DNA of 17,898 nt from Octopus sinensis (lineage: Eukaryota): assembly GCF_006345805.1 (NCBI RefSeq), contig NW_021824599.1, forward strand, positions 1 through 17,898. The letters run 5' to 3'. Both the position numbers and the translations under genes were made by a program. The notes under the pieces were generated by a model that did not search any database, was not told the DNA's origin, and saw only the letters and a program-made list of their open reading frames with translations. The stretch's first letter is position 1, and the number at the start of each line of letters is the position of its first letter. Below are positions 4,537 through 16,420 of the stretch, piece after piece.

Positions 4537-5395
4537 TCAACTCCCCTTTTTGAATTTTGTTTTCGTACAATTCAGTATTTTTTGCACTGAACATTTATTT
4601 TCAAGAACTCTGTCTTTTCTTTTCCTCTCACCTATACGCCTGGGTTCCATCATCTGCAGTGGCGTTGGTACTTGGAACGTATCGTGGAACCATTCCATCA
4701 GCTCCTCCAGTTTCTTTGGTTCGCTTTCCACAAATCTCTCTTTCAGTTGGTTCCTGTGTCTCTTTTGTATGCATTTTCTGTTTTTTACCAATACATCATT
4801 TTACCTATGCATTTGGTAATTACGCCATCTTCCCAACTCTATTTTCTATTCTTGTATGCCCTCATATTCACCTTTTCACCAACTTTAAAGAATCTTGCTA
4901 TGTCTTCCCCGGCACTTTTTTCTTTTCTTGCCAACATCAGATCCGCTGGTGATTTACCTGCTGGTGTATTCGAATTTGGTGTCATACGATACATTCTTAA
5001 AAATTGTTGACTTCTATATTCGATTTTCTTGGGGTCCTCTTGAAGGTATCGACAAAAGGTTCTGCCTGTGCATTAGATCTGGGTTGGTATGGCGTAGTAG
5101 TTACATGTTCTACCGCAAACGCTTCACAAAATTTTAAAAATTCGCTAGACACAAATTGCGTTTCATTGTCAGAGACTATTTTGTCTGGGATGTCAAATCT
5201 TGCAAACAGTTCGTGTAAAAAAATCACAACTAAGGAGGTTGGTGTTTTACACTCGTAAATTTCTGGCTATTCCGAGCAACTATCAACTACCACTAAGCAG
5301 TAAGAACCATTTAAAGGACCAACGAAATCGATGTCTAGTCTCGACCACGGAACATCTACTTCTGAATAACGCTTACTTTTTATCGTGGGCAATTT
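4537..5395 (-). pseudogene. Gypsy DDE integrase core and C-terminal region, disrupted
   Basis: PWSRLDIDFVGPLNGSYCLVVVDSCSE*PEIY...FARFDIPDKIVSDNETQFVSSEF...TTPYQPRSNAQAEPFVDTFKR (D-D-E present), then FLRMYRMTPNSNTPAGKSPADLM and RHRNQLKER. Confidence 0.9.
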
Positions 5396-5434
5396 TCTAT
5401 TTCGTTTTGGCTTACATACATGTGTCCTACTCTG

Positions 5435-5878
5435 TTATACTGCAAATTTTTGTTTCAGTTCCTCAGTCGCATTCGAACCTTTGACGAAACCGACTATATT
5501 TCCACACAAAACACTTATGGACGTATCCCACAATTTGAATAGATTAAGTGAATCTTTTAATACATATATATTTGCCTTTTTCGTTAGACCTCGAAATGCT
5601 ACATTACATACGAATTCACCGAAAAAGTGTAGTCTTTTTCCCGCAACACCTGTGCTACTTTTTCCGACATATTTCCACGATTTTTCGTTTATAATGGTGA
5701 TATCACTACCAGTGTCCAACTGCATTTTAACACTTGTATTCTTGATTTTCACCTTCACAAATTTCCTCATCGTTATATTACCAACTTCTTGCGGTGGCAT
5801 ACTATTTATTCTTTTTCCTTTGGTCTGACGTTTTGTCACCTTCGTTCTACAGTGCGTCTCAGTCGAACCACAACATTC
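5435..5878 (-). pseudogene. Gag zinc-knuckle remnant plus retropepsin-type aspartic protease
   Basis: ORF 5435-5839 contains VKMQLDTGSDITII (DTG active site). Its in-frame upstream extension reads ECCGSTETHCRTK. Confidence 0.85.
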
Positions 5879-6596
5879 TACTACTTAGTAAATGAAGATC
5901 TTCTAATGTTCAAGTTGCGACACGTTAAGTCTTGTTTTATTTATTTTAGCTAACTTGATATTATCATACTGATAACAATGATATATAATACTGCTTATCC
6001 TGATTAACAATCTTGAATTTACTCAATTCATATCTAATCTCTTCCTTCTTAACATATCAAAAAACCGCCGAGAAAGAGAGGGAAAATATTTTGTAGATTT
6101 GCTGTGAAACCAGCTCTTGATATCGATTTATCAAGCTTTCATATATCAGAGCCTCTGGATGTGACAAGGTTATTGTAAACCCATCTCTGGGTGACTACAT
6201 TCGCCGCATCTATTTTGTACAAATGAATATTTAATGAACTTTTAATTATACAATCGACTTTATTTCAAATTAAATTTGCATAAAGTCAATGATAAAGTAA
6301 CTTCATCTTCTATAAATAAGGGAGCATCATCATCGATACACAACCAACTATCTCTTTCATTGCTAGAGCTGCACAATAAGTCAGAGTGAACGTCATTGTT
6401 CTGATACAAATAATAGATAATCCTTCACATTGTTTTCGTATTTCTCTTTCCTAACGTAGATTGGCGTCACTGAAAGGAGCGACTGTATTACGAGGTGCCG
6501 AAATTACTGTGATCTCTTCTCGATAGATGATGAAGGCGAACGAGTAGTACGTAAAATATGGAATATATGTGCGTGTACTGTGTGCGCTTGCGCTAA

Positions 6597-6882
<286 letters not shown>

Positions 6883-6926
6883 ACAAAGTGAAGTTGTAAG
6901 GTACCGCACGAGTGGAATTATATATG

Positions 6927-7066
6927 AAAGGTTTGAAAATGCAATTTTAAAAGATGTTTATTCACTTGACCGGTTTCACTTTTTTAGAAAAAGATTGTCA
7001 AAAGTAACATGTAAAAGCTTCGTTGTGTTAGGTACTGGTTGTCACAAAATATTACAATGCATATAC
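6927..7066 (-). mobile_element. Penelope-like pLTR fragment (left arm of inverted repeat with ~8980-9118)
   Basis: Reverse complement aligns with 8980-9118 over ~140 bp, e.g. AAGGTTTGAAAATGCAATTTTAAAAGATGTTTATT. Contains a hammerhead motif. Confidence 0.75.
6962..7007 (-). ncRNA. Minimal type-I hammerhead ribozyme, U3-A8 core variant, GUC site
   Basis: Minus strand reads TTACTT-TTGACAA-TCTTTTTCTAAAAAAGT-GAAA-CCGG-TC-AAGTGA. Stem I UUACUU/AAGUGA, stem II CUUUUU/AAAAAG, palindromic stem III ACCGGU. Confidence 0.7.
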
Positions 7067-7074
7067 CACCACCA

Positions 7075-8412
7075 TCAGCAGCACTCCCAATGGAGAACAT
7101 CAACAACCTTGGAATCAAAGAAGCAATAGCTGCAGGATTGTATTAAAACCCTCATAAACGACCAAAGAGCTGCAGAGACAGCCTGGGCTATTAAGAACAT
7201 CAAGAATAATTCTAAGATTTTTTTTATTCCTTTGCAAAAACACATAGGACCACTGTTTCCTCTATCGGCCCACTGGCTGACGGAAACGGCATCCTTCACA
7301 GTGAGGCCAAAGACATGGCTGAGATTCTGCAAAGTCAATACTGCTCTGTTTTCAATGACCCTGATTCAGTTGACTCAAGCAGCTTTGCTTCTTCAAATCC
7401 TCAGCATGTATTTCCGATATAAACTTCGATGCTACTGACATCCTAGCAGCAATAAAAGAAATCAAACCTGATTCAGCAGTGGGTCCAGACAGAAGGCAGA
7501 CAGCAACTTGTAGTTCCTCTTGCAAATTTCTGAAGGAAATCCCTGGATGCCGGTTTGATCCCTCAAAACCTTCTCTCCTAGTCAGTTGTTCCTATCTTTA
7601 AAAAAGGAATAAATCGCACCCTGTAAATTACCCTCCAATCTCACCTCACATATCATCAAAACATTTAAGAGAGTGTTGAGATCAAGAATAACAGCCTTCC
7701 TAGAGCAAAATCATCTTCTAAATTGCAACTGGCATGGCTTTCGTGGTGGTAGGACTGTCTAACACAGTTCCTTCACCACTTTGATGACATTTTAAACGCC
7801 GATGTCATATACCTTGATTTCAGCAAGGCCTTTGACAGAGTCGACTTCAAATACTGCTGCCCATTGTGGTCCCCCTAGAAAACAACTAGACTTAATGAGG
7901 ATCGAAGCGCCACAAAGATCAATCACCAAAAAAAAAAAAAAAACAATAAATGGCACGACGGGACTTGATTATTGGGCTCGACTTAAACAGCTGAAGCTCT
8001 ATTCTCTGCTCTATTCTCTGCAAAAATATTAAAATGTTAAAAATATTCCATCAATATTATCCAAATGATATTGGGGTTACGTTTACAATTCACCCAAGAC
8101 TAGATCCCCTTGCAATGCGTCTCCTACAAAGGTCGAGATCACATCACATAAAAACATTGCGATACAATTTCTTCACTGGAAATGGTCCTGTTCTTTTCAA
8201 TGTTATTCCGAAAGAAATTAAACTAGAGAAAGACCCCACAACTTTCAAACGGTACCTGGACAAATTCCTCCAGGAAATACCGTGTAAACCAACTACACCT
8301 GGATACAACGCTCTGCTTGAGTGGTCCATCGTGTTGCAAAATAATTAATTTAAAGACTTTTCCAGATAGTGCTATTGGCCTGGGCAGATAATGGCTGAAA
8401 CCAATCTAAGTT
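7075..8412 (+). mobile_element. CR1/L2-group LINE remnant (ORF2 RT N-terminal part fused to C-terminal domain, plus 3' UTR)
   Basis: Translates in pieces to KEIKPDSAVGPD, SVVPIFKKG, PVNYPPIS, HGFRGGR, DVIYLDFSKAFDRVD, YCCPLWSP, GLDYWARLKQLKLYSL and LFNVIPKEIK..TFKRYLDKFLQEIP. Many frameshifts and stops; YxDD region absent. Confidence 0.88.
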
Positions 8413-8505
8413 ATCCATCCACCCATCCATCCATTCATCAATCCATCCATCCATTCATCCATCCATCCATCCATCCATCCATCCATCCATCCATCCATCC
8501 ATCCA
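8413..8505. repeat. (ATCC)n microsatellite at LINE 3' end
   Basis: Directly visible. Confidence 0.95.
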
Positions 8506-8506
8506 T

Positions 8507-8700
8507 AAAGGATCCCTCTGTCCGGCATTCGCCATGATAGATCGCTAACCATTACACATTCTTTATTTTCTCTCCCTGTTTCTTTCTGTGTTCCTTTCTG
8601 TGGAAGAGCGTAGGCTCGAAACGTTAAAGACTTTTTCATTTCATTAAACTAATACATCTGTTTGTTGTCTACACTACCTGTCTTCGTCTTTTGTTTTTTT
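8507..8700 (+). mobile_element. Short Penelope pLTR-like repeat with hammerhead-like motif
   Basis: Pyrimidine-rich leader, hammerhead fold at 8594-8629. Its 3' part ACCTGTCTTCGTCTTTTGTT (8676-8695) recurs exactly at 17648-17667. Architecture parallels 16210-16420. Confidence 0.65.
8594..8629 (+). ncRNA. Minimal type-I hammerhead-like motif with A6U substitution
   Basis: CTTT-CTGTGGA-A-GAGC gtag GCTC-GAAA-CG-TT-AAAG. Stem I CUUU/AAAG, stem II 4 bp, ACGU palindrome, GUU site. Confidence 0.6.
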
Positions 8701-8715: not shown

Positions 8716-9118
8716 TTTTATGTTCTTAACATGCTCTTGTCACCAAAAAATGTATATATATGTATTGTAGTACTCTGTGACAACCAATATTCTGTGCGTG
8801 TTTGAACATACAGTTACAATACCAATATCCCACTGAACTTTTTAATAATTCCTTCTGGAAACTATCTTTAACATGTTCTTGAGAATGATTATTTATGTTG
8901 AAATCTTTTGTGCCCAATATTTTAAGGAACTTGTTAAACTTTTTTATGTCCTTAACATGTCCTTGTTACCAAAGACTGTATATATGTAATGTAGCATTTT
9001 GTAACAACCAATAATTAACGCAACCAAACTTTTACATGTTACTTTTGACAATCTTTTTCCAAAGAGTGAAACCGGTAAAGTAAATAAACATCTTTTAAAA
9101 TTGCATTTTCAAACCTTC
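8716..9118 (+). mobile_element. Penelope-like pLTR region (right arm of inverted repeat) with internal partial tandem duplication
   Basis: 8980-9118 is the inverted copy of 6927-7066, and 8716-8790 resembles 8941-9015. Hammerhead near the 3' end; followed by (TA)n. Confidence 0.72.
9039..9083 (+). ncRNA. Minimal type-I hammerhead ribozyme, U3-A8 core variant, GUA site
   Basis: TTACTT-TTGACAA-TCTTTTTCCAAAGAGT-GAAA-CCGG-TA-AAGTAA. Perfect 6-bp stem I, stem II CUUUU/AAGAG, ACCGGU palindrome. Confidence 0.72.
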
Positions 9119-16211: not shown

Positions 16212-16420
16212 GTGACCGCGTCTGTATCGTTGGGGATTTTCTTTCCTCCGTCTTCCCTTCCTTGGGCCTTTCCTTTTTCTATGTTTCTGACGAAGAGCTT
16301 CACTCGAAACGTTAAATCCTCCTTTTTTCTTTCCTTCCTGAGCGTCCAATAACACCATACTTGTTCCACGTCCTCACGTTGTTGTGTTTTCTCTTTGTGC
16401 TTTCATGTTTGGATTAACTC
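16210..16420 (+). mobile_element. Short Penelope pLTR-like repeat carrying a hammerhead
   Basis: Starts at (TA)n; pyrimidine-rich leader, hammerhead at 16283-16317, T-rich 3' end. Same layout as 8507-8700. Confidence 0.65.
16283..16317 (+). ncRNA. Minimal type-I hammerhead ribozyme with canonical core
   Basis: GTTT-CTGACGA-A-GAG cttca CTC-GAAA-CG-TT-AAAT. CUGANGA and GAAA intact, G10.1-C11.1 pair, ACGU palindromic stem III, GUU site, stem I GUUU/AAAU. Confidence 0.78.

What the first reader, a model, noticed from the sequence alone, without database searches (positions are those of the whole stretch)
6962..7007. Hammerhead with compensated U3-A8 core and GUC site (minus strand)
Seen: core UUGACAA instead of CUGANGA, so the tertiary C3-G8 pair becomes U3-A8. 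GAAA is intact, stem I is 6 bp, 10.1/11.1 is U-U, and stem III is the ACCGGU palindrome. Known: 3-8 covariation is tolerated, and minimal PLE hammerheads use palindromic stem III to act as dimers. Canonical CUGANGA searches would miss this motif.
Basis: partly seen in the sequence, partly recalled or inferred. Interest (0 to 1): 0.75.

Follow-up and report, generated by a model that had tools for sequence, protein, structure and literature searches.

The report
Variant hammerhead in Penelope retrotransposon end
This is a hammerhead-shaped RNA motif of an already published variant type at the end of a short broken copy of a Penelope-type jumping gene with thousands of copies in this animal genome; it is predicted to cut only when two copies pair, likely with protein help, and this copy is likely silent, so the finding itself is real but ordinary.

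Summary
Real, but a known kind. The 46-nt motif is exactly as described. It lies in the terminal repeat (pLTR) of a 5'-truncated, about 185-bp fragment of a Penelope-like retrotransposon. [quoted passage not shown] U3-A8 and U10.1·U11.1 are the family state (82, 83, 78 and 81 of 83 copies), with 2,022 exact genomic matches and 0 control matches. Stems I, II and the palindrome covary across sister families. U3-A8 in Penelope hammerheads and natural U10.1·U11.1 are both published (PMC4209133, PMC3088659), and this scan noted U3-A8 Penelope hammerheads before in other genomes. The monomer fold is unfavourable (+4.3 kcal/mol); the dimer fold (-11.7) loses to a misfold (-17.9). Under 2% of copies begin at the cut site, so cutting in cells is not shown. 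Side findings are newer: a hammerhead family with a natural G3-C8 core (6,372 matches), one with A6U (3,300), and a likely -1 frameshift between ORF1 and RT.

The parts
6962..7007 (-). Minimal type I hammerhead motif: stem I 7007-7002/6967-6962, core UUGACAA 7001-6995, U10.1 6994, stem II, U11.1 6978, GAA 6977-6975, palindrome ACCGGU 6974-6969, C17 6968; predicted cut between 6968 and 6967
6883..7065 (-). 5'-truncated Penelope-like element fragment (subfamily A): about 58 nt upstream of the hammerhead, the hammerhead, the pLTR end and the tail; ends in (TA)n
   Evidence: 96.5% match to genomic copy L008 over 6871-7065; 2,567 first-look candidates, best 40 scored, top places 97-99%
6883..6919 (-). 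Penelope 'tail' of about 40 nt beyond the main 3' end; equals the sequence that follows the 5' pLTR in full-length copies
   Evidence: L099, L100, L105; tail concept from PMC8557442 passages and PMC11167929
8718..9129 (+). Second, likely independent insertion of the same family (subfamily B), no tail, ends in (TA)n
   Evidence: 88.5% to L139; the window's copy A is only 84% like L139; alignment
9039..9083 (+). Second U3-A8 / U·U hammerhead with GUA site (A17 at 9077); opposite strand, so not a same-transcript partner

Best explanation
The motif is a minimal type I hammerhead in the terminal repeat of a Penelope-like retrotransposon, and it is predicted to cut after C6968 only when two copies pair through ACCGGU, likely with help from the element's protein, while this truncated copy is likely silent. 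Shown: the sequence, its place in the pLTR on the coding strand of RT-endonuclease elements, fixation of U3-A8 and U·U in the family, and covariation of stems I, II, III and of pair 10.1-11.1 across families. Inferred: two hammerheads (5' and 3' pLTR of one transcript, about 5.9 kb apart in L100, or two RNAs) form a 6-bp stem III and swap stem I strands; the naked RNA misfolds, so cutting is slow or needs protein. The two fixed 3' ends of genomic copies lie about 50 and 95 nt downstream of the cut, so almost all copies must be made from RNA that is uncut or re-joined at this site. Cutting would therefore serve a side step, such as trimming units out of read-through transcripts.
For: Place: 12 of 12 loci fetched around RT-EN hits carry the pLTR end on the ORF strand downstream of the ORF, some with a deletion in the motif; RT PF00078 and GIY-YIG PF01541, E 4.7e-6. 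Fixation: U3 82, A8 83, U10.1 78, U11.1 81 of 83 homology-fetched copies; 2,022 exact matches, control 0; 0 matches for C3-G8 in the same U·U frame. Core-agnostic check: of 20 loci picked by protein likeness (55-65%), 11 hold a U3-A8 motif with a 6-nt palindrome, 1 holds U3·G8, 0 hold C3-G8, 8 gave none. Covariation: 38 of 45 stem I cells Watson-Crick in 9 families against a shuffle mean of 15.3, 0 of 20,000 shuffles reaching it (two of the nine were found with a descriptor that asked for stem I). Stem II has different letters per family; 10.1-11.1 is G-C, A-U, G·U or U·U; the palindrome is ACCGGU, ACUAGU or AAUAUU. Position 17 is C, A or U by subfamily, G in 1 of 83. Energies: monomer +4.3, dimer -11.7 kcal/mol. 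Literature: dimer-only, low activity of Penelope hammerheads (PMC4209133); protein-assisted cutting and uncut RNA as the main template (PMC11167929).
Against: No cleavage is shown. The hammerhead dimer is 6 kcal/mol above the predicted misfold for this copy and above or equal to the misfold in all 13 representatives. Only 25 junction rows, against 1,336 anchored copies, begin within 2 nt of the cut; the excess is p 0.003 against all positions but p 0.09 against AT-rich positions only. In a 355-bp non-coding family the unpaired or wobble states are common (U3·G8 50, U3-A8 34, C3-G8 12, C3·A8 4 of the first 100 of 664 listed, counted by eye), and a family with A6U has 3,300 matches. So elements here spread with imperfect cores, and selection on catalysis may be loose. 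The G10.1-C11.1 pair and the extra nucleotide typical of Penelope hammerheads are missing.
Confidence: 0.72

Rival explanations
1. The fold is kept for a non-catalytic job, such as RNA pairing through the palindrome or a landmark next to the RT start sites, and the U3-A8 / U·U form no longer cuts at a useful rate.
For: Predicted misfolding; no clear cut-site peak; a family with A6U reached 3,300 matches; hammerhead mutants did not lower insertion in vitro in an anole Penelope element (PMC11167929).
Against: U4, G5, A6, A9, GAAA, a 3-8 pair and non-G17 are kept across families 55-65% alike in protein, and the 3-8 pair occurs as C-G, U-A and G-C. That pair is a contact of the active fold (PMC3884650 passages).
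Confidence: 0.17
2. The hammerhead cuts efficiently in cells and the unit RNA is joined into a circle that RT copies past one turn, which gives the tandem pLTR and the tail.
For: The tail equals the sequence after the 5' pLTR, and both 3' ends lie just downstream of the cut. Proposed for Penelope elements in PMC4209133.
Against: Internal RT starts on an uncut tandem transcript explain the tail without a circle (PMC11167929). Genomic copies cannot tell the two apart. Cut but unjoined RNA should leave many copies that start at the cut; they are under 2%.
Confidence: 0.09
3. A chance match in AT-rich DNA, or a canonical CUGACGA core that decayed in this one copy by CpG loss.
For: No Rfam match; fold no better than shuffles; CpG-type G8A changes are seen in the 355-bp family.
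Against: Family-wide fixation; 0 C3-G8 matches in this frame; sister families have A or U at position 7, hence no CpG; covariation.
Confidence: 0.02

Closest known systems
U3-A8 minimal hammerheads of Schistosoma mansoni Cercyon Penelope-like elements (Cervera and De la Pena 2014, PMC4209133; read parts 1-2 of 4 of the text and part 2 of 3 of supplement file 2)
   Same: Type I topology, U3-A8 core, place in the pLTR, many solo and opposite-strand copies, predicted dimer action.
   Different: Here stem III is a 6-nt palindrome, there is no extra base after A9, and 10.1-11.1 is U·U. None of the rows I could read of the 56-motif table in Fig. S3 shows U·U there or a G3-C8 core.
Natural core variants U3-A8 and U10.1·U11.1 (Perreault et al. 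2011, PMC3088659; read section 8 and passages)
   Same: Both departures are reported in nature; U·U is called the best-tolerated mismatch at 10.1-11.1.
   Different: The section does not say that they occur together or in a Penelope element.
Hammerhead of the anole Poseidon element PAc (Frangieh et al. 2024, PMC11167929; read parts 1-2 of 4)
   Same: pLTR hammerhead just upstream of two RT start sites that define the tail; AT-rich targets.
   Different: PAc has C3-G8 and one ORF, and cutting was shown there (only with protein). Here the cut lies about 120 nt before the ORF1 start, and ORF1 overlaps the RT frame.
Neptune and Nematis clades of Penelope-like elements (Craig et al. 2021, PMC8557442; passages only)
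   Same: C-terminal GIY-YIG with a CX2-5CxxC linker, DKG motif, (TA)n targets, tail, inverted 5'-truncated copies.
   Different: Two overlapping frames instead of one; no reference tree was built, so Neptune versus Nematis is open.

Membership tests
Type I hammerhead (minimal, Penelope type) | Core N3 U G A N N8 A and GAAA with a Watson-Crick 3-8 pair | tested here: met
   U3-A8; fixed in the family
Type I hammerhead (minimal, Penelope type) | NUH cleavage triplet | tested here: met
   GUC; C, A or U by subfamily, G in 1 of 83
Type I hammerhead (minimal, Penelope type) | Stem I joining the 5' and 3' ends, kept by covariation | tested here: met
   38 of 45 cells Watson-Crick in 9 families, 0 of 20,000 shuffles
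Type I hammerhead (minimal, Penelope type) | Stem II | tested here: met
   6 bp, A-U rich; other letters in sister families, only 0-1 bp beyond 10.1-11.1 in three of 13 representatives
Type I hammerhead (minimal, Penelope type) | Palindromic stem III for dimers | tested here: met
   ACCGGU; ACUAGU and AAUAUU in other families
Type I hammerhead (minimal, Penelope type) | G10.1-C11.1 pair and an extra base after A9 (typical, not obligatory) | tested here: not met
   U·U and no extra base; G-C in sister families; U·U tolerated per PMC3088659
Type I hammerhead (minimal, Penelope type) | Match to an Rfam hammerhead model | tested here: not met
Type I hammerhead (minimal, Penelope type) | Site-specific self-cleavage | not testable with these tools
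   Bench assay needed; indirect genomic test inconclusive
EN+ Penelope-like element | [quoted passage not shown] | tested here: met
   PF00078, PF01541 in L098
EN+ Penelope-like element | pLTRs in tandem or inverted copies, 5' truncation, 30-45 nt tail | tested here: met
EN+ Penelope-like element | Single ORF | tested here: not met
   ORF1 of 481 codons overlaps the RT frame at a UUUUUUA site in L100; the same site in L098 and L099
Neptune or Nematis clade | CX2-5CxxC linker before the endonuclease | tested here: met
   CX4CX2C in all long ORFs; feature from PMC8557442
Neptune or Nematis clade | Placement in an RT tree with reference elements | not tested
   No reference proteins held; the tree has this genome's families only
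Non-LTR retrozyme | Short non-coding tandem units of 170-400 nt | tested here: not met
   The repeat is the end of a coding element of about 5.9 kb

The most novel reading that the evidence does not exclude
This genome is a natural mutational scan of the hammerhead core. Penelope-type elements spread by the thousand with C3-G8, U3·G8, U3-A8 and G3-C8 at the 3-8 pair and with G-C, A-U, G·U and U·U at 10.1-11.1. The U3-A8 / U·U form would be a tuned-down, protein-switched ribozyme that stays uncut until reverse transcription has passed, and the G3-C8 family would be the first natural use of the swapped pair.
Probability: 0.25. Interest if true: 0.6.

Novelty: new member of a known kind. Interest (0 to 1): 0.3.

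Why it matters
The role of Penelope hammerheads is an open question, and searches for CUGANGA miss most of them here. With the ACCGGU stem III, U3-A8 patterns gave about 9,800 matches (2,022 + 100 + 7,668; some double counts, controls 0, 8 and 54) against 147 for C3-G8 (control 35). Young copies with long open frames (L098-L103) make a protein-plus-RNA test possible. The motif itself adds one more example of a published variant.

Tried and rejected
Rfam: no hammerhead. Solved structures: no match for the RT-EN protein at E<=0.1. Single-strand folding: no hammerhead, no signal over shuffles. Expression: no RNA holder listed; four runs laid on L100 are contigs whose RNA status is a guess, so they cannot show ends or cutting. 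Cut-site test: 78 stretches picked by eye (point mutants and short indels left out; matches starting TG beyond the first 100 not seen) gave 73 junction rows, some pairs from one event. The excess at the cut is not robust to AT content. The downstream control was only read by eye, and an upstream control was not obtained. The idea that the two window copies are the inverted arms of one insertion was rejected, since they belong to different subfamilies. The tree has no outgroup, so it gives no order for G-C versus U·U. Lunse, Weinberg and Breaker (RNA Biol, cited in PMC6765202) could not be read; it may already list these variants. File 1 of the PMC4209133 supplement was not searchable, and figures were not seen.

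Full report
Observation. The minus strand at 7007-6962 holds stem I (UUACUU/AAGUGA), core UUGACAA, U10.1·U11.1, a 6-bp stem II, GAAA, the palindrome ACCGGU and C17 at 6968. A second copy lies at 9039-9083 on the plus strand with a GUA site. In 300 shuffles the descriptor hit 0.003 times per window and never with a palindrome. Rfam misses the motif, and the lowest-energy fold is not a hammerhead.

What it is part of. The window comes from a 2.7-Gb genome. The 136 bases around the motif gave 2,567 first-look candidates; the best 40 were scored and the top places are 97-99% alike. Copies are cut short at variable 5' points, end at one of two fixed 3' points about 40-45 nt apart, run into (TA)n, and often stand as inverted pairs. 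Walking upstream reached an RT thumb and endonuclease. All 12 loci fetched around protein hits carry the pLTR end downstream of the ORF on the same strand. The protein has RT, a DKG motif, a CX4CX2C linker and GIY-YIG. These are the marks of an endonuclease-bearing Penelope-like element of Neptune or Nematis type (PMC8557442 passages). L100 is a full unit: 5' pLTR with hammerhead, ORF1, RT-EN, about 2 kb of 3' UTR, 3' pLTR with hammerhead. The window's copy keeps only about 58 nt upstream of the hammerhead, plus the pLTR end and tail (6883-7065). The plus-strand copy belongs to another subfamily and is likely a separate insertion.

Is the variant core real? In 83 copies fetched by homology, not by core pattern, U3 is in 82, A8 in 83, U10.1 in 78 and U11.1 in 81 (the first 30 loci were the best matches to the window, which favours likeness). 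The U3-A8 / U·U pattern has 2,022 exact matches and its control 0; the C3-G8 version has none. Of 20 loci picked by protein likeness of 55-65%, 11 hold U3-A8 with a 6-nt palindrome, 1 holds U3·G8, none C3-G8, and 8 gave no motif. Across nine families stem I is Watson-Crick in 38 of 45 cells, shuffle mean 15.3, 0 of 20,000 reaching it; two of the nine were found with a descriptor that required stem I. Stem II changes letters on both sides, 10.1-11.1 is G-C, A-U, G·U or U·U even within one family, and the palindrome is ACCGGU, ACUAGU or AAUAUU. This fixes the numbering and shows selection on the fold in the active lineages. With the ACCGGU stem, U3-A8 patterns far outnumber C3-G8 (against 43).

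Against a tidy story. In a 355-bp non-coding tandem family, about 89% alike between forms, the first 100 of 664 listed matches are U3·G8 50, U3-A8 34, C3-G8 12 and C3·A8 4 (counted by eye). Part of its U3-A8 may be CpG decay, and the wobble form spreads well. A further family has U at position 6 in 3,300 matches. Perfect cores are thus not needed for spread here. U3·G8 also offers a likely route from C3-G8 to U3-A8 (inference).

How it likely works. A 2-nt loop cannot close stem III, and the monomer hammerhead costs +4.3 kcal/mol. Two copies paired through ACCGGU give -11.7, but a misfold in which the 5' strand of stem I pairs with the 3' side of stem II gives -17.9; sister families behave alike. 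These energies leave out the tertiary core. Published Penelope hammerheads cut weakly and only as dimers (PMC4209133), and the anole element's cut only with protein, with uncut RNA as the main template (PMC11167929). The anatomy here agrees: both 3' ends lie downstream of the cut, so copying the element needs RNA intact at that site. Of 73 junction rows, 25 begin within 2 nt of it (14.5 expected, p 0.003; 19.6 expected and p 0.09 when only AT-rich positions are compared), against 1,336 anchored copies. That is inconclusive, and at most a rare event. No run could show RNA ends. The window's copy has no promoter-side sequence and no same-strand partner, so it is likely inert (inference).

Comparison. 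U3-A8 in Penelope hammerheads: about 1,300 hits in S. mansoni. Natural U3-A8 and U10.1·U11.1: PMC3088659 section 8. The two together in a Penelope element I did not find (searches; table), but Lunse et al. was not available and may hold it. This scan has noted U3-A8 Penelope hammerheads in other genomes; those are unchecked notes.

Side findings. A repeat with Penelope-style ends carries GUGAACA, a G3-C8 core, with 7-bp stem I, 5-bp stem II and palindrome AAUAUU: 6,372 matches, control 0, G-C in 92 of the first 100. Searches returned no natural G3-C8 case: one paper mentions an engineered variant, one review was seen as a listing only. ORF1 overlaps the RT frame at UUUUUUA in 3 copies, and short-read contigs of three runs cross the site without gaps, so a -1 frameshift is likely. 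The Fig. 1 legend of PMC8557442 mentions frameshifted ORF1 in some Penelope types; I could not see which.

Verdict. Observation confirmed, reading supported, new member of a known kind; interest 0.3.

Noticed in passing
L254, L257, L264, L265-L276 (e.g. G000:C1:2860562-2860637); not in the window: Hammerhead family with a natural G3-C8 core (GUGAACA), extra G, 5-bp stem II, palindrome AAUAUU and 7-bp stem I; 6,372 matches, control 0, 92 of the first 100 G-C. Penelope-style inverted pairs and two 3' ends; no link to this RT in 12 loci. Not found in print. Likely more novel than the finding given.
   Followed up: partly
window 8594-8629 (+), in a repeat fragment at 8511-8700; L235-L244: Hammerhead-like motif whose family core is CUGUCGA (A6 replaced by U), 3,300 exact matches; the window's copy reads CUGUGGA. 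Either a dead core that still spreads or a tolerated variant.
   Followed up: partly
L100:1916-3358 and 3319 onward; L098:3352, L099:3326: ORF1 (481 codons, no Pfam match) overlaps the RT-EN frame at a UUUUUUA slippery site followed by a weak hairpin; likely -1 ribosomal frameshift in an endonuclease-bearing Penelope element.
   Followed up: partly
L211-L221, L227, L229-L231: About 355-bp non-coding tandem family (retrozyme-like) with a well-paired hammerhead in four 3-8 states, U3·G8 the commonest; 664 matches.
   Followed up: partly
window 16284-16316 (+): Canonical-core minimal hammerhead (CUGACGA, extra A, GAG/CUC stem, GAAAC GUU) in another repeat fragment next to (TA)n.
   Followed up: no
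window 4540-5890 (-): Decayed LTR-retrotransposon-like remnant with aspartyl protease and integrase matches; broken by stops and frameshifts.
   Followed up: no
window 7067-8400 (+): Decayed LINE-type RT fragment followed by (ATCC)n at 8413-8506, lying between the two hammerhead copies (read from sequence; no Pfam match for 7995-8345).
   Followed up: no
L264, near the motif found at antisense 5934 and 6028: Two hammerhead-like motifs with the same ACUAGU palindrome 94 nt apart in one pLTR, which could pair within one RNA; the upstream one is degenerate and was not found in sister copies.
   Followed up: no
L312, L317, L326, L357, L359, L362, L374: Several inverted junctions fall on the ACCGGT palindrome itself (8 rows at that position, some paired from one event), suggesting fold-back there during copying.
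   Followed up: no
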